A DNA stretch of 64,000 nucleotides from Antedon mediterranea. Taxonomy: Eukaryota; Animalia; Echinodermata. A model generated the notes under the pieces. That model made no database searches and was not told where the DNA came from. It worked only from the letters and a program-made list of their open reading frames with translations. The position numbers and the translations under genes are program-made. Location: positions 16,554,001 through 16,618,000 of the forward strand of contig NC_092674.1 in the NCBI RefSeq assembly GCF_964355755.1, given 5' to 3'. Below are positions 15,702 to 63,971 of the stretch, one piece after another (the stretch's first letter is position 1; each line of letters starts with the position of its first letter).

Positions 15702-15836
<135 letters not shown>

Positions 15837-19863: not shown

Positions 19864-22179
19864 CTAAAAAGTACCCTTTTTTGACAAATTACGAATGGCA
19901 AACATTTGCTAGTTACTGCAAGTTTCAACTAGCAAATTATGAAACAACTCTGGGTACTGTAATATAGTGTTTTGGGTTGAGGTACTAATGAAGACTCTTA
20001 CTCGCTTAACTGTCGTAACACATATTGTTTATTCAGTATAATACTTCAGTACAATATACAACTATAAGTATAGATAAGGAACGGAGGATCAGTGATGCTG
20101 TCGGTGAGGTGTGAAGTGTGTAGGTCTGCTTCTGAAGAAGTGGCTGTAAGGTGTGTCTGGGCCCTTCTGAAACTTGGGGGTATATTGGCTTCGGTTCATT
20201 TGCATATGTCACTACGTAATCTGTGAGGGTAACGATTGGTCCTAAGTTGATCCAGGGGTGTTTAAGTGGGAGTGATTGATCTTATCTGGGGAGGTTACAA
20301 TGATGAATTGGCCCTGTCGAATCTCTGCTAAAAACTGTCAATATCTAATTGTTTTACGATGGGAACAGTCACAAAGTTAAGCTAAGTGTTTTCTTTAGGG
20401 ATTCTATTATAAACTAAATGGTCATTAAAACATCTGGACAAACTCTCCTCTGGACTTTCTGGGTCAAGTTTGTGAACCTATTTGAATTCTGATACAAAGG
20501 TCAATTTCTTACTTATAAAAGTATATCGTTATATTACAGTACAGTACGTTACCATGCGCGCGATGTCATTGATGAAATTATTTTGTCCATAGGTAAACAC
20601 ATTTTTATGTATTATTATTCTGAAAATAATTGAACTGTAAAATAATTCTTTTGAGTGTTTGTTTGTTTATTTACATATCATTCCATCAGATCAACTATTT
20701 TTTATTTCAATTACATCCAACCAAACATGTAAATAATGTGGTTAAAATATGATATCATCTAACGCGTAGGGCCGTACAAACGGTCCGGTGACCTTACCCT
20801 ATTCAACCTCTCATGACCTGGGATTTTTTTGTCTTCCTATGCCAAAATAATATAGTTCCACATATTTTATTATAGTTTCAATTTTCTCGATATAAGGCCT
20901 TTATTATTCAAATCTATTAGAGAAAAAGCACACATACCATAACGAATGTCCATTTATTTCATTTTTTAAACAAAATTGTGAATATTCCATGAGGTTCAAA
21001 AACAAAACTAACTGATCTTTCCCGCGATCGGCAGAGCTCACGGTTAAATGATTTTGGATTCTGGCTATTTGATTGGTGAACGCGAATTACCCACAGTGGA
21101 ATGTCTATATAGAATTGGTTACGGCTGCTGCATAGCAAATTTTAAGCTTCTTAAATTTCTTCATTACATTTCTTCCTAACGTACTTACTTTATATTAATT
21201 ATAGAGATTGATAAATATTCCACTTGTTAAATAACTTTAAAAATCGGCAAAATTGATGGTTCAAAGCAAATGTTCCATGAGAGGCGACATTTTTCGACAT
21301 GCCTCGTGTGCGGCGAAGACTAGTTCTGAAAATGGAACAGTCCACGGCGAGGGTATCAAATTATTAATTAACATGCTAATACAGTACATGAATACCCTGC
21401 ACATTGCCTGGGCGACGTATTTTAGTAATACTGTAAAAGGAAGACTGAATCCCCCTGTAAGGAAAATGGTAAACACTGATGTTTATGGTCGGGATTATTT
21501 TTTTCAGTGGTTGGCCTCTGTGCACGAGGTCCACGCAAAGTCAAATAAAACAATGTTGTTTATCAAACAGAAATATAAATTAACTTCAATTTTACTAAAT
21601 TAACCAGATTTTGATAATGAGAAAGACTCAAATTAAAATATTTAATAAACATAGATTAAAAATATATAAAAATAATCCCTTAATCAAAATCTTTCCAGAC
21701 ATAATTTATTCACATGGGTACATAAGAAATAGTATATTTTTAACTTCTAAAGACATACCCATTTTTTAAATTTCACGAACGTGTTCAAATCGTGGTAACG
21801 AAATCTGCTTCATTGGGATACTACTATAAACCTTATTGAAAATTCTTATGAAATGTTCGTCTGTAACGCTCAGATTTTATAACCCTTGTTGAAAAATGGT
21901 AGATTCCTCAAATATAAAAATCTAATTCACACAGCACAATTTTTCTTTAGCGTCTTTTATTTTCGCAAAGTCTGAACAGTCAAAAGTAAAGTAAAGTATA
22001 AAATTCCTCATCAAGTATTGCTTTCATTTTCTAGTATTTCAAAGTGAAGGGATAGTGTATAACAAAATCAATAGCCGCCGTAAATACAGTAGCTCCGAAT
22101 TTTATTCGTGATACAATTTGTTTTTATTTTAATAATTTGTCAAAGTATTTTTATCAGAGTGCGCACTCTCAAAATTTAA

Positions 22180-28072: not shown

Positions 28073-31035
28073 CAGTACCGGACAGAATTATTGCAGATTT
28101 TGAACGCATTCAACGCATTGTTAAAGTGTTGACAACGCGTTGAAACTGCGTTGTCCGTTGGCGTTGAAAGTGTTGAGTTCGTTGAACTGTTTATTCAACC
28201 AACACAATGTGTTGCGTTGAGTTTGCGTTGAAATAACGAACAATCGGATTCGTATGGTATTTACAGATTGCCAGTGTGTATTAGTAGTACCGTATTTTCC
28301 GGAGTATAGGTCGACCCGAAGTATAAGTCGACCCCCAACTTTGGCCTAGAATATCGTTGATTTTGGTATGACCTGAATATAAGTCGACCCCCAAAATCAG
28401 CTAATAACACAACTTACTTTAAAGTTCAAAGAGGGCTAGAAATGTATGAAATGTGGTTATTTGTTTATACTGTATTATTAAAGTGTAGGCCTAATCAATA
28501 TCGGACGGACGGACGTAATGATGACAACTTCGCCGCCGTCTTCACCAGCCTATAATAAATGACAGCGATGTAGCGTTACTTGCCATCAGCGATGTTTTTC
28601 GCGTCACTCGAATAAATTAAAACGAGTTTTCCGTTAGGAGGCTTATTAATGTACAGGCGAGTAGTTGTAAATCGCGTTATCTGTAAATGTACACGCGCCC
28701 GACTAAGGAGAATTTATTTTATGAATAGACATGCGCAGTAATTGTAATTACGAACAAACAAACAAACTGCGCATGTGTATAGATGAAAATATCGCTCAAT
28801 AACAAACATGCTGCATGGACATTCCGACGTCTGTGGTGTGTGTTACGATGTTTTCGCGAGAGTGAATAAGAAGCATAAAGAAAACTATTTATTCTTAATT
28901 ATCTTAAAATAAAAGCGTAATATTTACATCAAAATGAGTCATTGTGATATATTAATATTTTATTGACCAGTACTTGTTGCAGTTGTATTATTTTGTACAA
29001 TGTAGGTATTAAATTGAAAACTTCTGTGAGTGATTGATGATAGGCCACTGACCTTGCTGGGTCTTGACAGCTGACGGCTTTTGAACATATTTTTTCGGCT
29101 TGATTTTTTTCAAAAATCGCATGGTCGGAGTATAAGTCGACCCCCCGATTTTGCAATTAAAATTTTCCCACAAAGTCTCGACCTATACTCCGGAAAATAC
29201 GGTAGTAGTAATAGTATAAAATACAGTATTACAAATATTTACGAAAACAAACATAATGTGTATTTTTCCGCGGAAACCTAGCTTAATATATTACACTAGG
29301 CTAGGCCTACTACTAACGAGTAGGCCCCGTGTGTATATGAGCCGCGTCTGCCATCGCAGTTAAAAGTACGTGGTCATGTCCTCAATTACTGTGTGCCTAT
29401 ATTAACTGGAGTATTAAATACCAAAGTTAAGGCGGCGGTGAATCTTGGAGGCTAGGTCACATCGTAATTAATTATTTCCAAACTAAAAACTTCGCAGTAC
29501 TGTACTACATTTTTCTCGATTATTTATAAAAACAACATAGCCTACACCCGCCGCCATGGAAGGCAACAATACACCACCAACATAACGATCCAGCATGGTC
29601 GTCGTCTTTTTCACGCATGCTTTTCGTGACGTGAGGGACTGATCGAAAGGTGAAGAGTTCATTCATTATGAAATAACGCGTAATTAAAAGGGAAAAAATC
29701 GTTTAGTTTTATTATTATCCATAAATATATCATTATCATGTATTATATTATAAATTAATTATTGTGATGCCTAACGTAACCCATGCAGAGAAAAGCGTTA
29801 AATATAATAACCAAGAAATAGGAATGACCAATTTGATGACAATAGGCAATGTTAGGCGTTTTCTTTAAAATCAAAACCTGTGCCATACCATATTATTCAC
29901 GCCAAGGTGTAACCCACAAATATTTGAATAACCAAACAATTCAGAATAAAGAACCACTTTATTCTGATGCAAGACAATATATTATTACAGGCGAGGTTTA
30001 GGCGTTTTCTCTTTAACATACTATTGTTTTGTTTCTTAATATAATTATATTGGCCTCCTCCTGAAACTGTATGAATGGGATGGGAGTTGCGAGAATATGC
30101 GAGCGAACAGCCAACATTTTAATCAGTTTACAGTGTGATGCTTTTCAAAACGCGCAACGTTTTCAACGCGTTCAACGCTATGGGATTCAATTGTTTAACG
30201 TCGTCAATGAACGGTCAACGGGTTCAACACATTCAACACGCTCTATTGTTAACGTATTCAAAACGCTTTTTGTACTTAAAAATGTAATGTTGTTCGATTT
30301 ATAAAGATTTAAATTGGTTCATGGGTGTCGGACACGTCAAATTTTTTAGTTCTTTCAAATTACATTACAACAAACAATGGGACAATTATAAAATAAAAAC
30401 CAAAATAGAGAAACAATATTTTAACTTTATCTCTTGAATCTCGAACAGCTAAAAAATGTAGGCCTAAATAAAATTAATTACTTCGTCGTCATTAACGATC
30501 GTTAAATACGTCATAACACACGTGGTGTTTTTCTTGAGGAAACCAGGGTGGCGGCCTCGTGTGTTGATGTCAGTAATTTCCACGTTGTTTGATTTTACGA
30601 CGCGAGATCGTGTTTTCCCCCGGAAGGCCTACAGTACAGTGTTAACTGTTAGACTTGGCATCGACCTTATTATTCGATGTTTTCCTTCACTAAACACTGG
30701 GAAATATCACTGTGTGTTTTATTTGGTAACTGTCCGCTCAATACTTAAAAATATATCTAAGCTTCATATATATTTTATTTATATTAAAATATCTGGTAGT
30801 GACTGCCGATAGGTATTTTGCCTGTTGTTGTTACTGATCGTTCAGGCGTGCAATCGGCCAGTCTAGTGCTGCAGCAGCTAGCGTTGAAATAACTAATTGT
30901 TTACTTGACATGCTGATAATGACTTTCGTTGAATAAACAACTAAACGTTGAAAGCCGTTCAACGCAACGCAAACACAACGCAACGACAACGTGTTGAATG
31001 CGTTGGGATTTTTGCAATAATTCTGTCCTGTACTG
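28073..31035. mobile_element. Tc1/mariner-type non-autonomous element inserted in a Helentron copy
   Basis: TIRs CAGTACCGGACAGAATTATTGCA / TGCAATAATTCTGTCCTGTACTG; TA flanks; CGTTGAA/TTCAACG subterminal repeats; the host Helentron sequence resumes at 31036. Confidence 0.85.
28290..29202. mobile_element. pogo/Tigger-like MITE nested in 28073-31035
   Basis: TIR CCGTATTTTCCGGAGTATAGGTCGA at both ends, TA TSD, TATAAGTCGACCC subterminal repeats. Confidence 0.88.
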
Positions 31036-34000: not shown

Positions 34001-37000
34001 TAGCATAGACGGAATTACGAGACCCATCTTTTAAATCCAATTATTAACACGATGACATCATCAAATTGACATAAAAATAATAATTTTAGAAGATAATTAT
34101 CTAATTAATTACATTAATACAAATTTGGAGAATTTTGGTCACGTAAAAGTGAGATGCGCTCTCGTTTAAACGCAATGAACTTTTACGCAAGAGGTGAAAA
34201 TATGACTTTTTGAATTCAACTGGCCATATGATGACGTCACAACATCTGATTGACAAAATATTCACATGAATTCGTATCTACAATCCAATAGCTTCAAGAA
34301 AACGTTTAATAATGATTATCACTTATAACTCTGACGAGCTATAACCGATTGAAATTTACTGTAAAGATAAAAATAAGTGACCCACGTTATTTACATTTTT
34401 AGACATGATGACGTCATAAAAATTAAAATATTTTAAACTCATGCGAAAGATAGTTGATTGACCTAGACAGTATTAAAATATATGAGGAAATGGAATACGT
34501 ATAAGCGATATGCGCTCTATTTAATGTAATGAGCAATAACGAAACAGTCAAAAATCCAATATTTTACATTTGTGTGGCCATACGATGACGTCATAACATC
34601 CGAGGGGTAAAGATTCTGCATGAATTCATATCTACAACATATCTGCTTACATATTAAATTTTTAAAAATGGGGGTAACGGTTGATCCTGAGGAGCTATAA
34701 TAGATTCAAAGTAGGCATAATTTTGACAATATTTTGTCTTTTTTTAAACTAAAACGCACGCAAATTGTCTAAATCAACGTGTTCGTATGACGTCATTTTA
34801 ATTTGAAATGATGTCAATCTTTTTTTAAATGACTAGGAAAGGCTGGAAAATCATAATTCAAGAGAAAAAAACATGATTTTCATGCACCGTGCGCACCATA
34901 CGCGTAAATTTGTTTGCGCGCGCGGGAATTTTTGACATGCTTAAAATGTCATGATCAGCGTAGAAAGTTGATTAGAAATTAATTTTGCGCATTTTGAAAT
35001 TTTAAATGCGCGGGCGCGGGTAACTTCTTGTGAAACATGCCATTTTTAATCCATAGAAAGTTCGCCCTTGATATGACTTAAATTTTCACCAAGTATCAAT
35101 AAAAAATGACTTTTGGTTTATAATCTATGATCAATCATTTAAATTCATAAAATCGCGCGTAACTCACGCTGCGCGACTCTAACGTCATATAACAAAGTTT
35201 CTTGCACATCTACAGCTACAGGTCAATCTTTTGACAAAGTTATACAAAGTTACGTTTACAAGCAATAGGGGATATGCGACGCACAAAAATCCGGGAAAGA
35301 AAGAAGAACTAGACATGAAACTCGTCACTTTGACGAGTTAGTTATCCGCTCGACAAACGCCACGTGCACGTCATACGTTAGAATATTGCACACAGAAAAA
35401 TATTAAGGCATTATGACCTGAACTGAAGAATATGATATGTTGTTATTTCTGAATTCTGTTATTTTGTGTTATATAGTATACACAGTACAATCTGTATACA
35501 TATCACAAACAGTGTAAAATAGGTGAAATTACGGGACCGGTATTTTATTGTAATTTTTAACATCTTGACGGTTTCAAAATGAAATGCAAAAGTAGAAATT
35601 TCAGAATGAAATTATCTCAGCAACAACATATTAACGTGTAGAAGAAATTTCATCAAAACAATGTTTTTTTAAATTGTAATCAATATTATTGTAATAATAT
35701 TTTTTGTTATATCTACAACGAAGTCTTTATTTAGGTTTTTTCTTACCTAGGCTCGGTCGCGCCCAGCCTCAACAAGTTCTTTCTAACTTGTTATTAATGA
35801 GTTTCGCACCCGCAACATCGAGTGCATGATCGTGTGTGGGCTAGCCTCGCTCGATCATTTCGAGAGGGCGCACGTTTTCACGGACAATCGTATTCGATTA
35901 GTATCTATGTATCCGAGAAGTGTATACGCTAGGTCCATGCTATAATCAACTGGAGAATATACTAGTCGAATACCGTACACCATGTGGCCGCCCAGAAGGG
36001 CTTGCGCTAGGGGTACAGAGGTCGGCAATCGTGCGTATAACTATAAATAAATACATTCCAATCGTAAACGTTTACAAATGAAATTTTATCGGAGCGCCTA
36101 AAACAGCTCTATAATGAACAAATCTTTTCATCATATTTAGTATAACATCACGCTAAAATGCCTTGAAAACTAGGCAGAAGCAGGTTGCCGTTACATTAAT
36201 ACACTGTAGCTAGCCTAGGCGCGCCAACCAACGAGGTGACGATTATGTACAATCTGTGTGGTGAGGCATTTATGTTCGGTGTATAAGACGCACCCTTAAT
36301 TTAGAGGTCAAATTTGCGTGTCAAAAGTGCGACTTATACACCGAAATATACGGTATAATAAGATGTTGGCTTAAAAAAAAGAAGTGAAAATGGCATGTTT
36401 TTTGTTTAGTAATGTATGAAATATTTATTTTAGGTGCCCCACGGTACAGAGGGTTACTTGTAAATAAAAAAATTGGTGAACATTTGAACAATTAACATTT
36501 TTTTAACGTTTTTGCTGTAGCGTACGTAGACACACAGTACACGACGTAACCGTCGGTAAACCTCGCCTGAAAAGTAACCACAGTACACATTTTGGTCCCT
36601 GGATGGAACATGATATGACGCGTCTGGACTCAACGTACGTAGCGTACCTACAGTAGCTATTATTTAGTAGTTAGGTCGCTGGCAATAATGAATGGAATGG
36701 AATGGAGCTAATACTGTACTGTGGTTGAGAGCAAAATGCATGTGGTATTTTTACCATGGAGTAATTACACACAGTAGTACTTCTTAAAGCTCAAGTGGGA
36801 ATCAAGGATATTTCTATTTTCGTAAACAATGTTATGAAAACGGCACAGATTGAAGTCTATTTTCAAGTACTGTAGCTTGAGCAGTATTTCTATTTTGTAG
36901 ACTATTTTTTTCACACACGGCGTACGTCTTCTTGCAGCTCGAGCGAAAGTCTAGTGTTATTTTTTTAAAACAAGACGATCAACTGAACTTAAAACGAATT

Positions 37001-39500: not shown

Positions 39501-40944
39501 CTAGAATTTAATTCGTCACTTTGACGAATTATAGGTGATCATTTTTATCATTTTATTGACATTCATATTTTTTAAACATGCACGTATGTTAACATACGAT
39601 CGGAAAATGTTGATGTATGCCATCCTATTATACGCTTATAGTGCTGAGTTGTGCCTATTATATGCCATATACAATATGTACTGTATATACTGTACTGTGT
39701 ATATCTATATACAGTGTAGCATAGGTGAATTTACGGGACCCACATCATGTTCTAATTTTTTTGTATGATGACGTTGTCAAAATAAACTTGAAGAGAACAA
39801 TATCGAAAGATAATGAATTGAGCAATAAATATAACAATTGGAAGAAAATTTGGCACGTAGAAGCGCGGTGCGCGCTCTTTAAAATTTGTATAACGACGAA
39901 AGAGATGAAAAAATGACTTTTTAACTTCAACTGGCCATATGATAACGTCACAACATCCGATAGGCTTCATTTTTATATGAATACATATCTACATTTCACT
40001 AGATCTCATAATAAGTTATAAACATCAAGGTCAACTTTAATTCAGAAGAGCTGTAAGGTATTCAAATTTACCTTGTAGTTGAAATTACGTAACCACCGTT
40101 ATTTAAATTTTAAGACGTGATGACGTTATCCAAATGAAAATCTTGGCAATTCATAAGTAACATAATTGGTTGAGGCACAATGTATTAAAAATTAAAAGAA
40201 AATCGATCACAGATAAGCGAGTTGCGCTCTGTTGAATATGGTGGTCTATGACAAAAGGGGAAAAAATCCTATTTTAAAAATTCATGTGGCCAAATGATGA
40301 CGTCATACAATTTTGTACGTCTGATGTGTATATACATTTATATCTACAACTCATTGGCTTCCATAATAAGTTAAAAAAATTGGGGGTCACCGTGCATTCT
40401 GAAGAATTATTTTCATTTCAGAAATGCCTTATTTTTTACCATTTTTAGCACTTTTGTACAATTAATGTGCGCATTTTGTCATTTTTAACGTGCTCGTATA
40501 GCACTATTTTAAGTCGAAATGGACTCAAATTTGGTGGATGTACCAAGTAAGATGAGTAGAATGCAATTTGTACAAAAAAATTGTATTTTTTACGCTTTCT
40601 GTGTACGCACGCGCAAAAACGTGTTTTTGCGCAGTAATTTTTTAAAACATGCAAATGGCCTAATTCATGCTCTAAATTGATCAAAACATAATTTTGAGCT
40701 TTTTAAATTTTTAACGCGCGATTTCACGCGCATGACCCTACGTGCGCGTGCGTTTTTATTTGCTAATATTTTTACCCTTGACCTGAAGTTTACGTGTTGT
40801 GAATTTTATTAATATGTGATAATGAGTTATGGAGATATGATTGATAATGTGATTTCACAAAATGGCGTATAAATAACAATAAAAACAACAATAAAGATTT
40901 CATACAATAACAATAGGTGATCATTTTATTCTAAATGATCACCT
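39501..40944 (-). mobile_element. Complete Helentron-type non-autonomous element
   Basis: CTAG + TTCGTCA-ctt-TGACGAA hairpin + AGGTGATCATTT at the left end; hairpin AGGTGATCATTT-tattct-AAATGATCACCT at the right end (40915-40944); sits in an (AAT)n tract; no TSD. Confidence 0.82.
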
Positions 40945-41559
40945 AATAATTTCTGGTTTACGTTTTAATTCAATACAGTAATAAAGAGCAAGCGTAATAA
41001 TAATAATACACAAAAGTAAGTCATTTTCTCGAGAAACAGTATCATTAAGTTATTAAATATAATCTTCTATTAATCTCCACTTTTGTCTGAAATTATACAA
41101 TGTACTTCTTTTAGAAGCAATGTTTTTTTCTACGTTATAATTAAATTTTAACCGATTAAAGAAAACCTGGAAGACTGGCTTTTTGTGAGTTAATTTGTAA
41201 CTAAATATAATTTTCTTAATCAACAAAATACATAGATTTAATAATTGATATTCTGTTTGATAATTTAAGAAATAATGAAAACCAATCAATTAATTGAATC
41301 AAACAATCTATTTTTATTTCAGAACAAAATCCATGGCTGTATTGTATAGAACAAAAGTATAATTTTAGACTAAACTATAGTACATATTCCGGTGTAGAGG
41401 CGTTATTCCTTAATGTCGTAGTGACCCACAAACCCCAACATTCTTGTAATCAAAATGTCTAATTTCCCAGAACTTTCGTTATGACACTATATAACCCTGA
41501 CCTTGTACTATCATGTTCACGCTCAGAAATCATTGAAGATCTACTTGGGACTAGATGTA

Positions 41560-43257: not shown

Positions 43258-44060
43258 ATTTATTTATTTATTTATTTATTTATTCTTTCTTTATTCTGCA
43301 GGCACTTTCAGTACTAGTGCATTGATTTCCAAAGTGGTACAGTAATTGAAAATATAACAAACATAATAAAAAAAAAAAAAGAGTAATTGAAATATACATT
43401 AAAAATAGTAATCAATTTTAGAAAACAAAAAATTCAGTTAAAAATATTGAGTACTAATTGTATTTTGGAATGAAGTTATTGAAAAATCTTTAAAGTTAAT
43501 TTTTAATTCATTTGGAAGTTCATCCAGCTTTTAGATGAACGATAAGTAAAGGTTTTTTTGCCTTGACAAATGTTCCAGGTGGGGACAACTAAATTGTTAT
43601 GGCTTTGGCTTCGTGTGCCTTTAGAATGGGTAGTGTTATTAAAAGGCCTTTTTGAGGTCAAATATGGAGGAGCACACCCTTTTAAACACTTGAAAGTCAT
43701 TAATAATAATTTTTCATTGCAGAGTACATTTAGTCTGTTCCAGCCAAGGTTATTTAAAATAAAATCAATTGAGGTCTTAATATCAACAGAAAGCAAAATT
43801 CTACCTAATCTATTCATGAGTACTTGTAAACAATTAGTATTTTGAACAATACAATTAGACCATACACAACAACAATAATAAAAAAGGGGAAAAACAAGAG
43901 CGTTGACTAACATTTTAAGCGTATATGACGGAAGAAAACATTTTACACGCCGGATGACACAAATACGTTTTGAAACATTTGAGGATACCTTGCTTATGTG
44001 ATCATTCCAATTTAATTGCGGATCAAATGTGACCCCAAGATATTTAAAAGAGTCAACTCG
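43258..44060 (-). mobile_element. 3' fragment of a CR1/L2-group (Crack-like) LINE
   Basis: Minus strand reads DSFKYLGVTFDPQLNWNDHISKV...MLVNALVFPLFYYCCCVWSNC...KKTFTYRSSKSW; (TAAA)n tail at about 43258-43284. Confidence 0.8.
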
Positions 44061-46042
44061 TCGCCAAAGAAAGAGGCCTAAAAAGTGCTTGTAACACGAA
44101 ATTTTAAATGCTATTTTTTGAACATCGCGATTATAAACTGAAAGTGAACTTGCAAAATATTCAACAGTAGTAACGTATTAAAATAAAGCAAGATGAACAA
44201 CTCTAAATTATGTAAAAACGTAATTTATTGGGATTTACGACAAAGCAATGTTAAATCAATGCGTTTCGGCCCAAGAAGGAAGACTTTTTAGACGGCTTGC
44301 AACATGCGCAGACGTATTCGAGATAGCCCACAGTTATTCCTTCTAGCTTACTCAATAAAACTCGGCTAAAAACTCCATTTTAAACAAAGGGTCTTATCAG
44401 ATCTCCCTATGTAATTTTATAAATACTATTCCCCACAATATACTGCAATGCTTTATGGCGTATATTTAATTTTATCTTTATTAATTTGCAGTATATTTTT
44501 TATTTTTTAACTACTGTACCTTCACGCGCGCGGTCCGAAAACAAACAAAAAACTAAAATGGCTATAGCCACTAAGGCGTGATCTACAAATTATTTCAGAC
44601 CACAAATCAGCGTCCAGACGCGTTTTCTATTGTTTACCCAAAAACGCGTCTCAAAACCCGTCTGATTTGGCTGCGTCTAGACGCCAATATGCATGTTCGA
44701 CTTTGGCCCCGCCCCTATTATACGGCTGACTGCACATTCTTGGTTCTGTGTACTGGTGGTGTGGTATTAAGCCCGTTTTCCTGTCGACGTTATTCGACAC
44801 TATATTGTCGGACGATCGTTTGAAAACGATCAAGTTGAAAATAACTTTATATTAGCATTTGACTCCATGCTTTGACATATTTTAATTAGTTTGTGATATT
44901 ATTTAGTGTTGCGGATGTTCTTTTTGTAAAAAACCAATAAGAAAATATCCACAATATCCGATTTTAATTTTAAGCACATAATTGTAGATTTTTTTGTTTG
45001 TAATGTGGTATCCACTGTATCGGTCGTGCAGCGCACAACACATAACAAGCGGTAAAGACAACGAATCAGTATTCGTCGCCTTTGACATAGTTTGACGTGT
45101 ACTGGTTTGACCTTGTTTCAGGCCTTTGAATTGCGTATGCAGTATCGCCCGCCGCCCGCACAACCGGCGGTAAGACAAACAAATCAGTACTGGTATACCC
45201 TTTTACAGAGTATACTATAAAGCGCAAATTTTAGTTTTTATTCGCAACCTTTCATTTTTGCGATTTTATTTTTCTTGTGCTAAAGAGTGAATTTACCACA
45301 TGCAAAAAAACGTAAAAAAACATGGAATCACTCAAACTATTGACCTAGGCCTAGCTAGTCTGCTGCGTGCTAGTCTATCTTAACATCCATCGTGGACAGA
45401 CCTTGGTTGGTCTTGTCTAGGCCTAGCAAGATAGCTAGGCTAATTTAGGCGAACCCAGTTAATTAGGCACGTACGATCGATCTTCTAGCTAGGTTAGGGC
45501 AGGTCTCTAGGCCTAGCCAGGGTATCAGGAATAACCGCTAGTTATGATAGGCCTATGCTATGTGTTCATTTTGTTGTTGTATGGTTTAGACGATTCCATT
45601 TTCATAAGGGATGGTCATAACATCATGGAAATTACAATACAGTAATGTAGGCCTGCTGTTCATTTATTAATTACCTATATAAATGGTACTTCCGTGCGAT
45701 TGTCTATATTCCCACGGTGTTGCTGGTAGGCCTACATGTACGTTGAATTGTAACCATGGAAATGGTGTCAGTAAGATGATTTTTATGATTCGTAAGACAG
45801 TTTAATACAGAAATGAATATTGGAAATTAAAAGTGGGAACAATTTATTATTTTATTAATATTTTACTCATATTATAACGATGATTTTGAAAGACAAAATT
45901 TACAATTTTATCTTATCTTATAATCTTTTTTTTTTCAAACAATTTAAACAGCAATCGAATCGTAAAGAAAATATGAATAACAGTGTATTTATTTACATTG
46001 ATTTAAAAAAAACAACTTAAATACTACAGTATATACAAACAA

Positions 46043-48008
46043 TTAAATCTGGCGACACGAACGGCATTTGCCATTGACGGCTTCTTTCAGGGCTCTTTCT
46101 TGTGTTGTAGTCGAACCGGGAAATACAGTTTCCACTTCTATGAAAATACCTTTCATTCTTGTTGGAGATAGTGGTGCCCACTCTACTCGATTACCATTTA
46201 ATTTCGTAGCTTTTCCATGTAGATTTGATTTAGCTAATTCTTCGACTGTAAATAGTTTTCTAAGAAGCAGTCTCGTCAGGGCTGTTGCTGTATGGCCAGA
46301 TGCAATGCACGTTCTGTAAACATCTTTGTTTAATGGTACTTTGCCACCAACCATTACTAGACCGTCTGGCCCAGCGGTTCGGGTCACGGGATGGTTGTTG
46401 AATAGCCGTCTGTTGACTTTAGCTGGTTGATGTAGTTGAGCTGGTTGATGATGTATTTGAGTTGGTAGAGGTATATGAGCTGGTGGATGAGTATCAGCTG
46501 GTGAATGTAGATGAGTATCAGTTGGTGAATGTGGACTAATATGAGCTGGTGAACTATGTTGTTGTTGCATGTTTAATAACTCCTTCTGATTTTGAAGTAT
46601 TTGTAAAAGCATCTCTTCAACTCGAGCTTGTCGTGACGCCAACTGCTCTAACAACTCTCCGTGATTGCAAACATCTGTTAATAATTATAAAAGATTAATG
46701 TACATGTACATATTTCTTATTTTTTTAAAAATAAATTTAAACAAAAATTGTAATTTAGGCCTAAAGCAAAAAATAGCCAAATTATTTGTCAAGGCAGTTG
46801 GTTACTAATTAGCTAAAGGCTTCTAAGTGAAATCAATAAAAAAAAAAAACCTGCAAAATGGCATATAAAGTCTGATTTTTAGTAATCAATGTGTTAAGTT
46901 TTTAAGGGGCAGATTTAGTTAGTTAATTTTCACTGGCGACACAATCTTAAAATACTATTACTATGGGGTATACCATTTTGTAAAATAATTAGAATTAAAT
47001 AATTATAGTCAGTGTTACAAAAATTCAAATGTAATTTATATATCGAAAGTATGTCAGAATATGAATGAAAATATGCAATAATGTAAACAAGACATTTGTA
47101 TATTATTAAACAAAATTAATATTGTTCGTTAGTAGTCATCGGGTCGATTTGTACAATACACGAAGAGATAAAATTGGATGCGTGTGTTGGAAGAACAAAA
47201 TAAAAACAATTTACTTACGACGAATTCCCATCGCTTCGTTTAAGAAATCGTGGATGATACTGTCATCATTGCTAAGAGTAGCGTCTGGTGCAGAATCTGG
47301 TTCAGCGTCTGGTGCAGAATCTGGTGCAGTTTCAACAACACATCGACGTTTTTTTAGTGGTGCTGCATTGTCATCTAAAAAAAGTCAATGTTAAATAAAA
47401 TGTAACAACATATATTACATAGGGCAATACCGTACATAAACATCTACATTATTATGGAACATATTTTATTTTTTGAATATGTACACAACTGCAGTACGAT
47501 AGAAAAACATACTGTACACGTGTGTGCATCTATTATTAAAGGGATTTTATATTTCATCATATTTTGTGTGTACGGGCTTAAAATTGTGTCAAATGGTCAT
47601 TGCGAATGATGATATGTAAACACACTTTTAAAACGCAAAATCGTCCTAATGAATGGTGATAAAATGATGAGTAAAATCCACAAATGGAAACATTCGTCTT
47701 AAAAGACATAATAATTGCACAAGGCATACATATTCACTACAATTTAATATAATTAACTTACCATTGTTGTCAGCGTTGTTATTTTTGGTTTTCCAAAATT
47801 CGGCGTCTACTTTAATGAGAACATCGCTGTCATCGGACAGTTCCAAGATTTGGCATTTCAGGTTCTTTCCACTGAAAGTAATTTCCGCCACACTTTTAAT
47901 GTTTACGTCTCCACGAAGTTTTTTGGATGGCACAATGCTCGTGCTTTCATCGAACTCGAAATAAACTAAGGCAAACTCTGGATTCCTTGATAAGCGACGG
48001 CGACTCAT
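46043..48008 (-). CDS. BEN-domain protein, spliced: complement join(48008-47762,47374-47219,46674-46043), 344 aa
   Basis: Two phase-1 GT-AG introns (GTAAGT donors) give an uninterrupted frame. N-terminal FALVYFEFDESTSIVP...ILELSDD globular segment, NLS-like PLKKRR, coiled-coil-like LLEQLASRQARVEEMLLQILQNQKELL, His/Pro linker, and a C-terminal BEN-like segment TALTRLLLRKLFTVEELAKSNLHG...PLSP...AVNGKCR. Confidence 0.82.
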
Positions 48009-48330
48009 GATTTACTATGATATTTGACGAATTTAATATTTGATGTATCTAAGGCAATTGCAGAAAGAGAAGTGAATTTAATAGCTGCTTAGAGCCTTTT
48101 TATTTAGGTATACAGGGAGTTGTAGGAACTCCCTTGTTTGTGCATTGAAAGCCGTTTCAATTAATTTGCTTATATACAATTAAAAGCTAGCACCTATTTT
48201 TTTTTATAGAACAGCAACACCCAATTCAATTAAGAGTGAACAAAAGCGTTGATTTATGGTTTTAGCAACGCCTTGGCCTATGCAAAAACAAATTCAGTAT
48301 ACTATTATTATACTATTGTTACTATTCAAG
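48009..48330. promoter_or_regulatory. Putative bidirectional promoter region between the BEN gene and the transposase
   Basis: About 320 bp between two head-to-head start codons; central 8-bp-stem palindrome AGGGAGTT-gtagg-AACTCCCT at 48114-48134. Function is inferred from position only. Confidence 0.45.
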
Positions 48331-50450
48331 ATGTTATCAAGTCCACGTTCTCCGAATTTTTCTTCAAAACTAGCCTCGGGCAATTACTTTAGAACCAAGA
48401 AAACAAAATGCATATCAAATATTAAACCAGTTGGTCGTCCGTCCATTACGTCAAAATTTCCATATATGATCACTGTTGCAAGGCAATTTGTAGAAAACAA
48501 CGGGTTTGAAGCCCATAGGAGACGGCAGTCTACCACAGGCCTTTGTGGTACTGGGTTGAAGGAGCTACGAAGGCACCTGCTACAAGAAATCGAAGGACTT
48601 CGCGATCAACATCCACAATTTAGTAAGTACAGTATAAATGTTTTGAGAACGAAAGTTGACAATATTTACTGCTTTTTATTATACATTTTATTGTTTAAAT
48701 TTGTTTAGTTAGTTTTTAGTTTTAAAATATAAATTGAAAAAAATTAAGTTTGACAGCAACAAAATTTATTTTTTCATACAATTTAAATTACAGTATATAT
48801 ATAGATATTCTTCAGATGATTAGCAGATTACTTTTATTGTAATTGTTTTACAATTTGTTTTTTTATATTATCATTGCCCACATCGTTTTTATATTATTTC
48901 CTGCTTCAAGTTATTCAATTGTTTTTGTAGGTGTTGATACTGTTCATAAAATGTTCAAAAGTCCACATGAAGGGAGAAAAACCTCTGCGCGTTACAAAGG
49001 AAACATTAATGCAAAAGTCCCACCTAAAGACAACTCAAAGATGAAGGAGAATCCAAATGGACACTTCTACAGCGCCCGTGTAAAGTATTGCCTTCAACTG
49101 TCTGCTAGCTACCCAGCTAATTGTTGCGTGTTTTCAGTGGACAACAAGAACAAAATTAAAATTGGTATGTAAATTAAGTGCTTTTTAATCTAAATCACGG
49201 TATTCACAATTTAAACACAGTCTAATTTTTGAAACACGCCATTTTTACAAAAAGTTTGCCCTTGATATAAATTAAACTTTTACCAAGTGTATATTACCAA
49301 ATATATTTATTATTTAGGATCGGATGTTCTTGCAGTGGATAGACACATAAGCATACGCCGTTTTTTCCCGTGCAACGACAAACCTATATACAGTGATCAT
49401 GACTTCCCTTCACGTGCTGGCAACTTGGTTACTCCATGCGGGTATATGAAGCTTACTCTACCGAACCCTCCTGAAAATACATCAGATAAGCATGGTCGTA
49501 AGGAACTTAAAGTTCATCGAAGTGGACCAGTGACGATAGTTAATAGAGGACCGATGACAAAATGTACCATTGCCTCGCATATAAACGACTTGTTACCTTT
49601 AGTGATAAATGAAGTTCATAACGGCAAAACGATAGTTTCTATTATTGCAGATGGCGGTGGGGATTTCAACACTGGACACCATACGAATCTTCTGTATTAT
49701 GCAAGGCTTTTCCGAAAAACTGCACTGGATGCCCTAATAGTTACCGCTTACGCTCCTGGTCAATCGGCATTCAACATGATCGAACATGTATGGGGAGCAT
49801 GTACGGCAGCCCTGACATCTGTTTCCATACCAGATAAACTTCCCGGAGAAACACTCTGTCCATGGCAACAAGGTCTATCAGAAGACGAGCAACAACAGAA
49901 GGAGTGCAGAATGTACGACATTGCGATGCAGACTCTTGGCAACTATTTAAGTAATGTGGAGTTTGGGGGGCTTCCGATTAATGTTCAGTATATTCCCTCG
50001 TCGGGCCAGGAACTACCATATGCTGATTATAATGAGGTTTATGCCGTAATGTCGAGTAACAGTGGTAAAGTCTACAGAGAAAGTCAACTACAGGATGAGG
50101 TTAACTTTATGCTTAAACATATAGATAAACGCATAGGATTTATTTCATTTATCAAATGTTTAGACAATACTTGTTCTCACTGCACAGCTAATCCAATTAT
50201 TGCCAACGATATATTACGACCGATAATTCAGGCTGGGGGGTTTCCATCTCCAATGTGCAATGAGAAAGGGGACCATTACTTGACTTTCAATGAAGTTATT
50301 GGTCTACCATCATGGGACACAACCGACATGGCAATGCGTGCGCCTGTCGGTCGGTGTCGCTTTTGCCCATCATACACTTTTAGCAGCAATGCAGAGGTAA
50401 CATCACACAGAAGAAAATATCACCCAAGACAAGATGTTTTAAAAGAATAG
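48331..50450 (+). CDS. Zator-type DDE transposase, spliced: join(48331-48622,48931-49164,49318-50450), 552 aa (start could instead be 48256)
   Basis: Three ORFs join in frame through two phase-1 GT-AG introns with no stop. Motifs SVDNKNKIKIG (D1), SDHDF, ADGGGDFN (D2) and APGQSAFNMIEH (E), with 43 residues between D2 and E (DD43E), as in Zator. CxxxxCxxC motif and a C-terminal C2H2-like finger CRFC...HRRKYH. Confidence 0.88.
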
Positions 50451-50454
50451 GCAA

Positions 50455-50752
50455 TGTTTTGAAATGAAAAGGTTATATGTAAATATGTGTATTATAAAGA
50501 TATGTTTTGAAATTGTCATTTTTAGTATACAGAGTAATAGACCTATAAATAATTATATATGCTTCTAAATTAAATATTGCATTTTTTTTGTGTTAATATG
50601 TTTTTTAAATGAAAAGGTTATATGTAAATATGTGTATATAAAGATATGTTTTGAAATTGTCATTTTTAGTATACAGAGTAGGCCTAATATACCTATAAAT
50701 AATGATATATGCTTCTAAATTAAATATGTATTTGCATTTTTGTTTGTGTTAA
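50455..50752 (+). repeat. ~145-bp tandem duplication just downstream of the transposase stop
   Basis: aaatgaaaaggttatatgtaaatatgtgtat... starts at 50462 and again at 50607, nearly identical. Confidence 0.85.
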
Positions 50753-52186
50753 TCATAAATAAATAAATAAGTCTTCTTGAAATTGTAATTATTTCTACTT
50801 ATTTGTCTATATACGAAAATAACGTTTAAATCCCGTTTAAAAAAATTGTTTTCATTCAGTTTGCCGACGACATTTTTTTTGGGCTTTGATATGAAATATG
50901 AATCAATACCTCTTACGATTGACGATTTAGTGACGCTTATCAGCATGTTAACGCGGGTTTCAATCATGACTTGATTCGTGTTAACGCGAATTGGCGCGAA
51001 GTAGCAAGATAGTACAGTAGGTAATGCAACGCAACGATTTACTGTCACTCTCGCTCGCGATCAATTAGGCCTAGCATCAGGTAAATTTCGGTTATTTTTA
51101 CATTTTGCCAGAGACATGGATGATTATGCGTTTGTCGGGGAATATAATATACAGTAAAAATCGTTCGCGTTCACTTCGTAGCTTCAGCGCCTAGAAAACC
51201 ATTACATTCCTTTGACCGTAAGTAGACCTACGTCAGAGGGATATTATGCACTTTATATGCATTCATTATTGCCAGCGATCTAACTACTAAACAAAATAGC
51301 TAGGTAGTACGCACTTGTCTGGCGGTGTCCCTTTGTACGAATCGTTCAGCGTTGGGTCCACACGCGCGATATCATGTTCCATCCAGGGACCAAAATGTGT
51401 ACTGTAGTTACTTTCCAGGCGAAGTTTACAGACGGTTAATTACTTCGTGTACGATCCAATGGGAAAAAACCTCGTTTGTGGGTTTTACGTTTCCGGCCGT
51501 TGTGTGCATAAACTTGTATACGCAGATATATTTTCTTTGCTAGTGTGCCACTGTTTTAAAAGTGTAGATTTCCAAACAAATTATTAATAATAATTCATTT
51601 TTTGTACTGTAGTATGTATTACATTTTTTTGTAATTCGCAGATTTAAGTGATGTTAACTAATAATTAACGTTTTGACCTAAACAATGATAAGCTTGTTGG
51701 TTAATTAACAACATAGGTGGTAATACGCGTCTTCTATCTATTGTTTCACCATACAAGCAATACAGACGGGTTTTAATCACTCAGACGCGTTTTCTATTGT
51801 TTTACCTACTAACAGCGAAGACGGGTTTCAATCACACAGACGCGTCTTCACCGCGATTGGGTAGCTCATGAATATTCATAATAGATCGTTAATGAGGTTC
51901 AGCATTGGACAGACGCGTCTGATGAGTGGCAAGTTTCCAGACGCGTCTCTGTGGTCTGAAATAATTTGTAGATGACGCCTAACGGCCAACAATAGTTGAA
52001 ACCAAGAAGTTTCAAGGTGAACCTGTGAACTCATCGTGAGCCCGGAAATTACTTTGACCCGCGTACAATTGAAATTTAATTGAAAATCTACTGATGAAAT
52101 CAGAAATTTTGTTATAAAACCCTTTATAATTCAATTCACTTTTATTTCAGACCAAAGTCCATATCATAACAAATAACAATATTCAA

Positions 52187-53584
52187 CTAGAATTTAATTC
52201 GTCACTTTGACGAATTATAGGTGATCATTTTTATCATTTTAATGAAATTAATATTTTTTAAACATGCACGTACGTTAACATACGACCGTAAAAAGCTGAT
52301 GTACGCCATCCTATGACATGATGCATATACACTTATAGTGCTGAGTTGTACCTATTATGTACAGTATATACTTTATATCTATATACAGTGTAGCATAGGT
52401 GAAATTACTGGACCCACATCATGTTCAAATTTTTCGGTATGATGGAATTATCAAAATAAACTCGAAGATGACAATTTCGAAAGATAATGAATTGAGCAAA
52501 TAAATATAAGGATTGGAAGAAAATTTGACACGTAGAAGCGCAATGCGCGCTCTTTGAAATTTGTATAACTTCGACTAAAGAAATTTAAAAACAACGTTTT
52601 AACTTCAACTGGCCATATGATAACATCAAAATAAAAATGTTGACAACTCCTGAGAAAGATAATTAATTGAGCAAGCACATACTAAAACTTCTGCGAAAAT
52701 CGACCTAAAATAACGGAGATGCGCTCTATTGAATGTGATAACCCATACAAAAAGATAAAAATTACTAATTTTTAAATTGAAGTGGCCATTTGATGACGTC
52801 ATACCATTTTGTACGTCTAATGTGTACATGAATATGTATCTACAACCCAATGGCTTCCCGAATAACTTAAAAAAATTGGGGGTCACCTGCCATTCTGAAG
52901 AGTTATATTCATTTTAAAAAGGCCTTATTTTTCACCTTTTTCATCACTTTGATGCAATTAATTTGCGCATTTTGACATTTTTAACCTGCTCGTATACCGT
53001 TATTTTAAGTCGGAACTGACTCAAATTTGGTGAATGTACTAAGGATGCTGAGTAGAATGCGATTTGTATAAAAAAATTGCATTTTTTACACTTTGTAAGT
53101 ATCGCGCGCGCAAAATAATTTTTTTGCGCAGTAATTTTTTGAAACACGCAAATGGCCTAATTCATGCTCTAAATTGATTAAAACGTAATTTTGAGCTTTT
53201 TAAATTTTTAATGCGCGATTTCACGCGCATGACCCTACGTGCGCGCGCGTTTTTATTTGCTAATATTTTTACCCTTGACCTGAAGTTTACGTGTAGTAAA
53301 TTTCATAAATACTGTATGTGATAATGAATTATGGATATATGATTGATAATGTGATTTCACAAAATGGCGTATACGTGACGTCACGGGTCAGTGATCACGC
53401 TGAAAAGCTTATTATGGCTAAGTTAAAGTATTTGAAAGACATTGTGATTTTTTTGTGATCATTGCCATTCAACTTTTTGAGATAATTGTTACACAAAAAG
53501 TGTACAGAAAGAATAAAAAAAAAAAAAATAATAAAGATTTCATACAATAACAATAGGTGATCATTTTATTCTAAATGATCACCT
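52187..53584 (-). mobile_element. Helentron-type non-autonomous element with both ends, internally deleted
   Basis: Same terminal structures as 39501-40944; lacks an internal segment near 52625. Confidence 0.82.
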
Positions 53585-53699
53585 AATAAATAGATGCAAG
53601 TAAAGTAGTATACCACATGTCGCACATAATAATGCCGTCGGAAAACCGTCGGTTTTCAACTAGGAGTGAAAAAAAACCACATTATTATGGCTATACTGA

Positions 53700-54548
53700 C
53701 ACAAGTTAACATACGTAAAAGTATGAATGAAATTATGTATACAGAAGTTCAATCCATTTTCTGTGCAACTTTGAATCTTTTAGAATTCGAGAAAAAACAC
53801 TTTTTTCAATTTTTGTTTTGAAACAAAAAATTTATTTCCGAATGTACTCATAGAAGGAGGGAACATGGTTATCAACAAACATTGCACTAGCACTACAGCT
53901 CCTTGAGCATCTTAAAATCTTTCTAAATGTGTTGTTATAACATACCTGTAAATGACTTCATAGTTTTTACATTAAAATCGCACCATAAGGCCGCACAATA
54001 CATACTAATACAGTATGACTTAAACAAAGTAATCTTAACATTCGTTGAGTATTTACTAAATTTTCTACAAAGAGAGTTTACCTCTAATACATAATGATCG
54101 ATATTGCCTTTTAATATCCAGTTCGTCCCTAGTATCATTACTATTATAACACAACCAAGGTAGGTAGTGGATTGAACGTAATTTAGTTCTTTACCACATA
54201 CAGTAGAACAGTATAATTACCATTCAGTTTTCTTTTCTTAGGGCAAAAGCACATGCAAATTGATTTTTTTAAAATTATATAATACATCAAAGTCATTAGC
54301 AAAATCCTCACATATGTTGACCTTCTTTTGGAGGGCATCTAAAGAGGGCGCAAGTAACACCATGTCGTCTGCATAACTTAAGTTGTTGAACTTTGTATTA
54401 TTGAGCTCACAACCAAAATTACAATCACTAAGCATACTGTTTAAATTGTCAATGTAAACATTATATATCAGAGGAGACATAACATCACCCTGTCTAATGC
54501 CATTGGTAACTTTAAAACCTGAAGACATAGAGTTACCCCATCTAACAA
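53700..54548 (-). mobile_element. Degenerate non-LTR retrotransposon RT fragment (Proto2-like)
   Basis: WGNSMSSGFKVTNGIRQGDVMSPLIYNVYID...LSYADDMVLLAPS, followed after frameshifts by KITLFKSYCISMYCAALW. Confidence 0.8.
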
Positions 54549-55273
54549 AAATAATATCTTCCTAAGATAGAAGGCAGAGATTTGTCCCGAAGTTTTTCCA
54601 TTGTGCTCGCCTATGTCAGAACTAATCATAATTTATATATAGATGGACCTATAGTTGACCAGAAATTAAGTTAGGTAAAAATTGTATCAAAGTTCCACCT
54701 TGGAGTCAATTGTATAAAACTTTAAAATGATATTTGAATCTGAAATATACACATTGGTCGCGCTAATTTCAATGGTAGAGGCGGTTAAGTGAAGGGGTCT
54801 TCTGCACCACCTCAGTCCCATCATGGTTGGGGCTGAGGTAAAAAAAGGGAAACATAGACCTTTTAGTTGGTACAATCGTATCAAACTTCTCAATTCTTTA
54901 ACACTAATGTTGTTTGTACTGTCTACTTTTAATTTATGGATAGGGAAAGTCTCCACACACATAGACTGCCCAAATCATTATGCTTTAATACCAAATTTTA
55001 ACTCTTGCAATAGTTTTAAATTTAACCTAATATTAGTTATTTTGTCAGGTTGATAAACTTAATCATAATTCAATTGCAACATCGGACACTAGTGTGGGTA
55101 TGGTAGATGTTTTCTGGAATGTACTGTAGGTTTTATAAAACAAATTACAGTGGAAAATATATTCCTGAGTGTAGTAGTAAAATAATTTTTCAACATTTCG
55201 TCATCCGTAAGAGAGAGTACCTTATTTTGTTTACTTTACTCCTTTTTTTTAAATAACTTTGTTTTTTTTGCAG

Positions 55274-63487: not shown

Positions 63488-63971
63488 AGGGAGTTTTCGC
63501 AACCTTACGAATACGATAACGAAAACGGATACGTCACACATTTGTGAAACTTTTGAGCTGATCCCCATTTCATATTCGTAAAGCGTATTCGTGTTGACGA
63601 ATATCACTAGTCATATAAACGAGTATAGTTTTTGATGTATTTTGCACATTTTGCACTTGAATCAGGAATGATTCATGATTATAATATAATTATACTTTTA
63701 TTGAAAGTAATTTACTAAAATGCCAGGTCAATTTTGATAATAGCAGTTTTAAAGTCCTCACTCGCTTTGATGTTACGCTAGGCCTAGGCAGCCAAGCATC
63801 AAGCAACACGTACCTGCGCTTTGCTCAAATTTACCGCAGTTATATTTTGGACGGCGCCCTCAATATTTTGTTGCCATGCAAAACAGATTTTTACTGGCTT
63901 ACGAAAAACGAATACGTGTGCGTGACGTATCCGTTTTCGTTATCGTATTCGTAAGGTTGTGAAAACTCCCT
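63488..63971. mobile_element. MITE with ~50-bp TIRs (Harbinger/ISL2EU-like ends)
   Basis: AGGGAGTTTTCGCAACCTTACGAATACGATAACGAAAACGGATACGTCAC and its near-perfect reverse complement at 63922-63971; TSD unclear. Confidence 0.8.

What the first reader, a model, noticed from the sequence alone, without database searches (positions are those of the whole stretch)
44575..51979. Two-gene Zator transposon: DD43E transposase plus a divergent, spliced BEN-domain partner
Seen: 30-bp TIRs (29/30) and a TAA TSD enclose two head-to-head genes. Each has three exons with canonical phase-1 GT-AG introns and no stops or frameshifts: a 552-aa transposase and a 344-aa protein ending in a BEN-like domain. Established: Zator elements (TP36/IS630-related, TWA TSD) are described as encoding a single transposase. 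BEN domains are sequence-specific DNA-binding/chromatin modules (BANP, BEND3, Insensitive). PIF/Harbinger uses a separate Myb/SANT protein to bind ends and import the transposase. Inference: this is a two-component Zator lineage in which a BEN protein is the end-binding, targeting, anti-silencing or autoregulatory subunit. I know of no description of a Zator-BEN pairing, but could not search.
Basis: partly seen in the sequence, partly recalled or inferred. Interest (0 to 1): 0.92.

Follow-up and report, generated by a model that had tools for sequence, protein, structure and literature searches.

The report
Two-gene Zator transposon with BEN partner
This is an intact 7.4-kb cut-and-paste transposon of a feather star that carries, back to back with its transposase gene, a second gene for a BEN-type DNA-binding protein; the same pairing recurs beside distantly related transposases, so the second gene is likely a long-kept helper that would bind repeats near the element's ends.

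Summary
Observation confirmed: 30-bp TIRs (29/30), TAA duplication and two head-to-head three-exon genes without stops. The 552-aa transposase equals RefSeq XP_071949802.1 (Antedon mediterranea). It has D168/D287/E331 (DD43E), weak ISAzo13 profile hits and a Mos1-like predicted fold, so it is Zator-type, not Harbinger. The 344-aa partner has a predicted coiled coil and a BEN domain (above the Pfam cut-off; closest solved structure BANP).

The pairing recurs. Three of 4 metagenome contigs with at least 1.9 kb upstream of a related transposase (29-35% identical) carry a divergent coiled-coil+BEN gene. A hemichordate pair is suggested by near-consecutive accessions. TIR enclosure there is not shown.

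Both ends carry an AGACG(C/G)GT array, and BANP's G-reading arginine is kept. Best reading (0.5): the BEN protein binds these repeats as an end-binding helper. This is untested; the transposase has its own predicted HTH, and the two genes show no co-phylogeny.

No such pairing turned up in 10 literature searches, but Repbase, Dfam and two key papers were unreadable. The scan earlier noted BEN partners in EnSpm/CACTA elements and one two-gene Zator with a differently labelled helper. Verdict: new variant of a known kind.

The parts
44572..44574 (.). left target-site duplication TAA
   Evidence: sequence
44575..44604 (+). left TIR, 30 bp, begins GG
   Evidence: 29/30 match to the right TIR
44616..44686 (.). 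left subterminal array: 5 AGACG-core motif instances, mostly AGACG(C/G)GT
46043..46674 (-). partner exon 3: predicted coiled-coil helix (residues ~139-174), Pro/His linker, BEN domain (residues 267-339, about 46061-46279), stop
47219..47374 (-). partner exon 2 (basic KKRR stretch, possible nuclear signal by inference; acidic/Pro repeat)
   Evidence: splice model from sequence only
47762..48008 (-). partner exon 1 (N-terminal region of unassigned fold)
48009..48330 (.). 322-bp region between the two start codons, putative divergent promoter; 8-bp dyad at 48114-48134
   Evidence: function inferred
48331..48622 (+). transposase exon 1 (GRP motif, start of predicted HTH region)
48931..49164 (+). 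transposase exon 2 (includes first catalytic Asp, D168)
49318..50450 (+). transposase exon 3 (D287, E331, Cys/His cluster, C-terminal C2H2-like finger, stop)
51131..51452 (.). nested ~320-bp unit of an unrelated high-copy repeat (other copies at window 4474-5121, 10212-10346, 36537-36694)
51725..51948 (.). right subterminal array: 10 AGACG-core instances, three sites being AGACGCGTCT palindromes counted on both strands
51950..51979 (-). right TIR, 30 bp
51980..51982 (.). right target-site duplication TAA
   Evidence: sequence

Best explanation
This is an intact two-gene cut-and-paste transposon with a Zator-type DD43E transposase and a divergent coiled-coil+BEN gene, and the BEN protein likely oligomerises and binds the CpG-containing repeat arrays just inside both ends as a helper of the element. 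Shown: the ends, both reading frames, the BEN domain, the arrays, and recurrence of the gene pair beside distant transposases. Inferred: (1) both genes are driven from the shared 322-bp region; (2) the coiled coil gives dimers or tetramers that read the palindromic ACGCGT cores, as BANP reads CGCG; (3) the bound protein helps the transposase, which would contact the 30-bp TIR through its own HTH, to pair and cut the ends; (4) binding may depend on the ends being unmethylated, which would tie mobility to methylation state. Insertion is at TAA/TTA.
For: Recurrence: L001, L002 and L011 carry a minus-strand coiled-coil+BEN gene upstream of transposases 35, 31 and 29% identical to ours. A BEN profile built without window or locus rows hit only these three and the window gene among 2535 six-frame ORFs. 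Ptychodera flava XP_070560361 (transposase) and XP_070560363 (BEN) share a 47,284,028-nt contig (adjacency indirect). BEN-linked transposases fall in three deep branches of a 23-row tree, and the linked BEN domains are only 17-32% identical, which points to long retention. Motif AGACGC occurs 12 times in 431 terminal bases against 0.11 expected (windows chosen after the fact). The closest solved structure is BANP by profile (E 8.5e-6) and by fold (E 1.8e-4). N285, K337 and R339 align with BANP N269, K314 and R316, and R316 reads a G of CGCG. BANP needs oligomerisation to select unmethylated CGCG. A BEN-like fold reads the inverted repeat in Tn3 transposase. The Harbinger Myb protein binds ends and recruits its transposase.
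Against: No binding or transposition data exist. The transposase has its own GRP motif and predicted helical N-terminal domain that aligns with the Mos1 N-terminus, so it could bind the arrays itself. L008 has a putative left end with a CpG-rich array ~420 nt before the transposase and no BEN gene in 1.9 kb upstream; its downstream side is not on the contig. The array at L011's putative end is CCGA/TCGG, not our motif, although its BEN keeps the arginine; L002 has Gln at that position. There is no co-phylogeny: Mantel 45 of 120 permutations as high, 5 pairs only, and the linked BENs are not one clade among 15 rows. BANP S313 and R320 are G and Q here. Both TIRs were seen around the pair only in this one element.
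Confidence: 0.5

Rival explanations
1. The BEN protein is a regulator only. It represses or protects the element's own transcription (autoregulation or anti-silencing at the shared promoter or the ends) and takes no part in cutting and joining.
For: BEN proteins are transcription and chromatin factors. The head-to-head layout recurs in L001, L002 and L011. A dyad lies in the intergenic region. The transposase has its own predicted DNA-binding region. L008 may lack the partner.
Against: The BANP-like CGCG-type motif clusters at both ends, far from the promoter, which is CpG-poor (observed/expected 0.52 against 1.35-1.45 at the ends). Arrays at both ends suit end pairing better than promoter control (inference).
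Confidence: 0.27
2. The BEN gene is cargo picked up more than once, for example from BEN-bearing EnSpm/CACTA elements or host genes, and gives the element no specific service.
For: Linked BENs are not monophyletic and do not track the transposases. N-termini differ among partners (short first exons in L001 and L002 by eye; a different exon in L011). Earlier scan notes report BEN genes in EnSpm/CACTA elements (unchecked).
Against: The position, orientation and coiled-coil+BEN order are the same in 4 directly seen loci with transposases only 31-36% identical. The frame is open here and in L002. The tree test has little power with 127 columns.
Confidence: 0.13
3. The BEN protein is a targeting tether that steers insertion to CpG-rich or particular chromatin sites.
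For: A CGCG run lies ~45 nt left of the insertion (window 44526-44533). BANP-type BEN domains bind CpG islands.
Against: Only one insertion site is available. The target is a TAA in a high-copy repeat. This reading does not explain the arrays inside the ends.
Confidence: 0.08

Closest known systems
Zator superfamily (eukaryotic relatives of bacterial TP36/ISAzo13; e.g. Branchiostoma Zator-1)
   Same: 3-bp TAA duplication and ~30-bp TIRs (Branchiostoma Zator-1: 33-bp TIRs, TAA/TTA; PMC12905397 passages). Transposase related to ISAzo13 profiles (PMC5718144 and PMC10045372 passages pair Zator with ISAzo13). Mos1-like predicted fold.
   Different: A second, divergent, spliced coiled-coil+BEN gene and subterminal arrays. 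That Zators are described with one gene is recalled; Bao et al. 2009 was not held.
PIF/Harbinger (transposase plus Myb/SANT protein)
   Same: Two genes, TWA duplication, and a separate DNA-binding protein that binds the ends and recruits and imports the transposase (PMC9392472 passages). This is the working model.
   Different: The transposase is IS630/ISAzo13-like, not IS5-like, and the partner is BEN, not Myb/SANT. Interaction and requirement are not shown here.
En/Spm (CACTA) with TnpA, and animal CMC elements with BEN partners noted earlier by this scan
   Same: An accessory DNA-binding protein with subterminal repeat arrays at both ends (TnpA role recalled). Head-to-head BEN partners are described in unchecked scan notes.
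   Different: Unrelated transposase superfamily; termini are GG..CC, not CACTA.
BANP and BEN-solo transcription factors (Insv, BEND6)
   Same: Coiled coil plus a single BEN domain; best profile and fold match; Loop-1 Asn and helix-5 Lys-Cys-Arg kept.
   Different: About 25% identity, lies inside a transposon, and ends 5 residues after the arginine.
Tn3-family TnpA DBD1
   Same: A BEN-like fold that reads a transposon's inverted repeat (PMC9579193 passage).
   Different: Bacterial, fused inside the transposase, and replicative transposition (recalled).

Membership tests
Zator superfamily | DDE transposase related to TP36/ISAzo13 | tested here: met
   NF033519 hits 8 of 13 family members (best E 7.1e-9; this protein 1.5e-4, far below the prokaryotic cut-off). 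PF07592 hits 8 of 13, and relative P0007 passes the cut-off. Weak for this protein alone.
Zator superfamily | IS630/Tc1/mariner-type RNase H catalytic fold | tested here: met
   VIA top three of 48,161 chains are Mos1 (two) and Metnase, Z 8.4, rmsd 3.5-3.7 over 166-170 residues for the catalytic domains. Integrases follow within 1 Z unit, so the margin is small. Foldseek gave nothing at E<=0.001.
Zator superfamily | 3-bp TWA target-site duplication | tested here: met
   TAA on both sides
Zator superfamily | Short TIRs (~30 bp) with GG..CC termini (termini recalled) | tested here: met
   30 bp, 29/30, GGCG..CGCC
Zator superfamily | Clusters with reference (Repbase) Zator transposases in a tree | not testable with these tools
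   No reference Zator sequence was available; supplements searched gave names only.
Canonical single-gene Zator architecture (recalled description) | Transposase is the only gene | tested here: not met
   A second intact gene lies inside the TIRs. Filed as a variant lineage, as Kolobok lineages are split by accessory gene (PMC9587614 passages).
PIF/Harbinger | IS5-like transposase | tested here: not met
   No Harbinger/IS5-type Pfam or NCBIfam family was listed for any of 13 members; the hits are ISAzo13 and IS630.
PIF/Harbinger | Second gene encodes a Myb/SANT protein | tested here: not met
   The partner is BEN by Pfam and by fold.
PIF/Harbinger | Both proteins needed for transposition | not testable with these tools
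   Needs an excision assay.
En/Spm (CACTA/CMC) | CAC-type termini and CMC transposase | tested here: not met
   Termini are GG..CC; the transposase is ISAzo13-like.
BEN domain | Pfam PF10523 above the gathering score | tested here: met
   28.5 bits against 23.2
BEN domain | Five-helix BEN fold with middle loop | tested here: met
   Model pLDDT >90 over the domain. Foldseek: BANP E 1.8e-4, prob 1.00, rmsd 2.6; all 14 listed rows through rank 15 are BEN structures.
BEN domain | Sequence-specific DNA binding | tested here: inconclusive
   N285, K337 and R339 are kept, while S313 and R320 of BANP are not. No binding data.

The most novel reading that the evidence does not exclude
An ancient animal lineage of the IS630/Tc1/mariner group transposes as a two-component machine. 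A BANP-like BEN oligomer reads unmethylated CGCG arrays at both ends and licenses the transposase, making mobility a direct read-out of DNA methylation. BEN genes would then be a shared accessory module of unrelated animal DNA-transposon superfamilies (Zator, EnSpm/CACTA) and a source of host BEN-solo transcription factors, as Harbinger Myb genes were for MSANTD/NAIF1.
Probability: 0.3. Interest if true: 0.85.

Novelty: new variant of a known kind. Interest (0 to 1): 0.63.

Why it matters
Elements of the IS630/Tc1/mariner group are the textbook one-protein transposons (established knowledge). A conserved second gene in a Zator-type lineage shows the transposase-plus-DNA-binding-helper design of Harbinger and En/Spm in a third, unrelated group. 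The intact copy supplies both proteins and a candidate binding motif, so the helper's role and any methylation sensing can be tested directly. It also offers a route by which BEN genes multiply in invertebrate genomes and are domesticated.

Tried and rejected
Genome-level tests: no genome was held for this window, so copy number, exact empty sites and other two-gene copies in the same genome were not tested.

Binding prediction: transposase 30-548 with partner exon 3 gave 'no answer' (score 0.00, 0.00; alignments not used). It is not evidence either way.

Expression and reads: no RNA holder was listed. Partner and transposase splice junctions could not be read, because the joints table was cut and a closer look was not obtained. 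One contig of run X8 (kind unknown) aligns from 49317, the exon-3 acceptor, with its first 82 letters unplaced there; this is a weak hint only. Run X5 has no cover at 48255-48888, which is not interpretable.

Homolog searches: the word-indexed searches for the partner found none of 193 candidates and 2 of 7983. No relative of the transposase was found in viral contigs (0 of 166 stretches), GTDB genomes (0 of 30) or phages. The BEN alignment was too variable for a locus scan. The ESM Atlas did not complete.

N-terminal domain: a Tudor/SH3-like barrel shared with P0022, P0028, P0031 and P0035 looked plausible by eye but was not supported (126 of 500 shuffles as high).

Adjacency by locus tag or accession: not seen for the Holothuria hits (BEN HOLleu_44546 and 02731 against transposases 26495, 27490, 42540, 43282, 43925, 44295) or for the second Antedon pair P0002/P0024, whose contig lengths differ. 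Only a few BEN proteins per genome were sampled.

TIR pairs: none enclosing the pair among the longest inverted repeats listed for L001, L002, L006, L008 and L011; the contigs are short.

Harbinger was considered because of the GGC start and TAA, and rejected on the transposase.

Papers not held: Bao 2009 and Pan 2023 on BEN phylogeny.
Full report
1. Observation. The element spans 44575-51979 (7405 bp). Its first and last 30 bases are inverted at 29 of 30 positions, begin with GG and are flanked by TAA on both sides. The TIR occurs nowhere else in the window. The + strand gene (48331-48622, 48931-49164, 49318-50450) splices at GT..AG phase-1 introns into 552 aa. That protein is letter for letter RefSeq XP_071949802.1 of Antedon mediterranea, so an independent annotation has the same model and the window appears to come from that feather star. 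The - strand gene (48008-47762, 47374-47219, 46674-46043) gives 344 aa; no database protein identical to it came back. The start codons are 322 bp apart.

2. The transposase. Fifteen relatives were found among 1287 candidates, from echinoderms, a hemichordate, rotifers, a glomeromycete fungus and unnamed sources. In a 13-row alignment D287 and E331 are invariant and the D168 column is Asp wherever present, giving DD43E. ISAzo13 profiles hit 8 of 13 members in NCBIfam and in Pfam, weakly for this protein (E 1.5e-4 and 0.015). No Harbinger-type family was listed. Passages of PMC5718144 and PMC10045372 pair Zator with ISAzo13 and give 3-bp duplications. The model (mean pLDDT 73) is closest to Mos1 and Metnase (Z 8.4), with integrases less than one unit behind; Foldseek gave nothing at E<=0.001. 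The model has a helical N-terminal region after a GRP motif, so the transposase probably binds DNA itself (inference). I could not compare it with reference Zator sequences.

3. The partner. Exon 3 scores 28.5 bits on Pfam BEN (cut-off 23.2). Its model shows a 36-residue helix, a disordered linker and a confident domain that matches BANP best (Foldseek E 1.8e-4). A profile of relatives also ranks BANP first among solved structures (E 8.5e-6). By that alignment N285, K337 and R339 correspond to BANP N269, K314 and R316. R316 bonds to a G of CGCG (PMC10206803 passages). BANP S313 and R320 are not kept. The N-terminal exon could not be assigned.

4. Does the pair recur? A metagenome scan with the transposase alignment gave 13 loci from 324 stretches. 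Nine have under 1 kb upstream of the match and are uninformative. Of the four with 1.9 kb or more, L001, L002 and L011 carry a minus-strand gene upstream with a coiled-coil-like segment, a linker and a BEN domain. Pfam BEN scores are 27.2 bits for L002, 22.2 for L011 (just under the cut-off) and 14.3 for the first piece of L001, which is split by a frameshift. A profile of 12 public BEN proteins, themselves found with the window's gene as query, hit 5 ORFs in 4 places among 2535 six-frame ORFs of the window and all loci: the window gene and these three. Their transposases are 35, 31 and 29% identical to ours; L002 looks intact, while L001 and L011 have breaks. Against: L008 has no BEN hit in 1.9 kb upstream, and shows a putative end (TAA then GGG, with a repeat array) ~420 nt before the gene; its contig stops ~70 nt after the transposase. 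In a tree of 23 transposases the five BEN-linked rows fall in three deep branches, and L011 shares a starred branch with L008 and the rotifer group. That tree left out short loci L009, L012 and L013 and proteins P0006, P0010, P0015, P0016 and P0018-P0021; it has a midpoint root, and fungal P0013 sits on a long branch. It fits an old partner with losses, but also repeated gains. Pairwise identities of the five BEN domains (17-32%) do not track those of the transposases (45 of 120 permutations as high), and the five are not one clade among 15 BEN rows whose other members have unknown neighbours. Both TIRs around the pair were seen only in this window.

5. Ends and family. AGACGC occurs 12 times in 431 terminal bases against 0.11 expected from the rest of the window (post hoc windows). 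Contigs of 4 of 10 listed runs were laid. In run X4 (organism A) one contig matches 47245-49353 without a difference and bridges both first exons. Runs of organism B hold pieces of both genes with few differences, for example 46841-48036 and 49489-50342 in X5. Contigs with other letters and far higher depth lie on both subterminal regions, consistent with many shorter derivatives; the tool warns that depth is no copy number. The flanks are a high-copy repeat, and two X4 joints (44559 to 52013, 44562 to 52025) show related flanks without the element. These are paralogues rather than exact empty sites.

6. Mechanism. Best reading (0.5): the partner oligomerises through its coiled coil, binds the ACGCGT arrays and helps the transposase assemble on the ends, possibly only when they are unmethylated. 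Supports by analogy: BANP needs oligomerisation to select unmethylated CGCG (PMC11472053 passages); a BEN-like fold reads the Tn3 inverted repeat (PMC9579193 passage); the Harbinger Myb protein binds ends and recruits and imports its transposase (PMC9392472 passages); maize TnpA binds subterminal repeats (recalled). Every step after 'BEN domain and arrays exist' is inferred. Rivals are regulator only (0.27), repeated cargo (0.13) and targeting tether (0.08).

7. Known or new. I ran ten full-text searches: Zator+transposon, BEN domain+transposase (10), BEN+DNA transposon+Repbase+Zator (43, 0 papers), BEN domain+transposon (47), BEN/BANP structure (60), BEN/DUF4806 (76), Zator+two proteins+TIRs+ISAzo13 (78), Harbinger mechanism (84), BEN domain+transposable element (93) and Zator+ORF+Bao+TWA (106). 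No listing described a Zator-BEN pair or a BEN gene carried by a eukaryotic transposon. I saw term-matched passages only, never whole texts, of 15 papers: PMC12905397, PMC7386202, PMC5751038, PMC10045372, PMC5718144, PMC9579193, PMC11601247, 10.1101/2021.09.26.461848, PMC9587614, PMC11472053, PMC10206803, PMC8533490, PMC10789644, PMC9392472 and PMC10294476. I also ran term searches in the supplements of three of them. Bao 2009 and Pan 2023 were not held, and Repbase and Dfam cannot be searched here, so the pairing may sit in a database entry. Earlier, unchecked notes of this scan describe BEN partners in EnSpm/CACTA-type elements of several genomes and a two-gene Zator-like element with a NAB-NCD2-like helper. 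I recall, unverified, that NCD2 has been reported as BEN-like in fold, in which case that element may be kin to this design.

8. Verdict. This is a real, intact element and a recurring two-gene design in a Zator-type lineage, with a plausible and directly testable helper role. New variant of a known kind; interest 0.63.

Noticed in passing
window 51131-51452; also 4474-5121 (two tandem units), 10212-10346, 36537-36694: A ~320-bp repeat, tandem elsewhere and of very high contig depth, sits nested in the element's right non-coding arm; no target duplication was evident.
   Followed up: partly
window 49227-49288: Transposase intron 2 holds a ~60-bp piece of a dispersed repeat with four other copies in the window, at 26037, 32065, 33507 and 35028.
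   Followed up: partly
window 48114-48134: Perfect 8-bp dyad with a 5-nt spacer in the region between the two start codons; a possible regulator site.
   Followed up: no
window 50457-50753: ~145-bp tandem duplication in the transposase 3' region.
   Followed up: no
window 7372-8776, 43503-44177, 53935-54561: Decayed LINE reverse-transcriptase-like fragments, recognised by eye from ORF translations.
   Followed up: no
window 40251-40949 and 52747-53589: Two copies of a ~700-bp repeat flank the region about 12.5 kb apart.
   Followed up: no
window 13556-18293, 14308-17978, 15384-21079, 28288-29204, 63500-63959: Further near-perfect 30-bp inverted pairs, probably other elements or MITEs.
   Followed up: no
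L004 3-1370 (+): Related transposase with a C-terminal C2H2 finger and PHD-like finger (Pfam PHD E 3.4e-4, below the cut-off), echoing an earlier scan note on a PHD-bearing Zator.
   Followed up: no
L011 262-420, L008 1338-1600, L006 4660-4801: CpG-rich CCGA/TCGG repeat arrays at putative element ends; L011 and L008 begin TAA then GGG with no closing copy on the contig.
   Followed up: partly
L011 4648-5004 (-): Upstream exon-like ORF resembling a Tudor/SH3-type barrel by eye, possibly the N-terminus of that locus's BEN partner; no significant Pfam hit.
   Followed up: partly
L010 3-269 (-): Short divergent ORF with a coiled-coil-like end upstream of a rotifer-group transposase, cut by the contig end; it could be the start of a partner gene.
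   Followed up: no
L001 2111-2370: Three ~85-bp direct repeats between the partner and transposase start codons.
   Followed up: no
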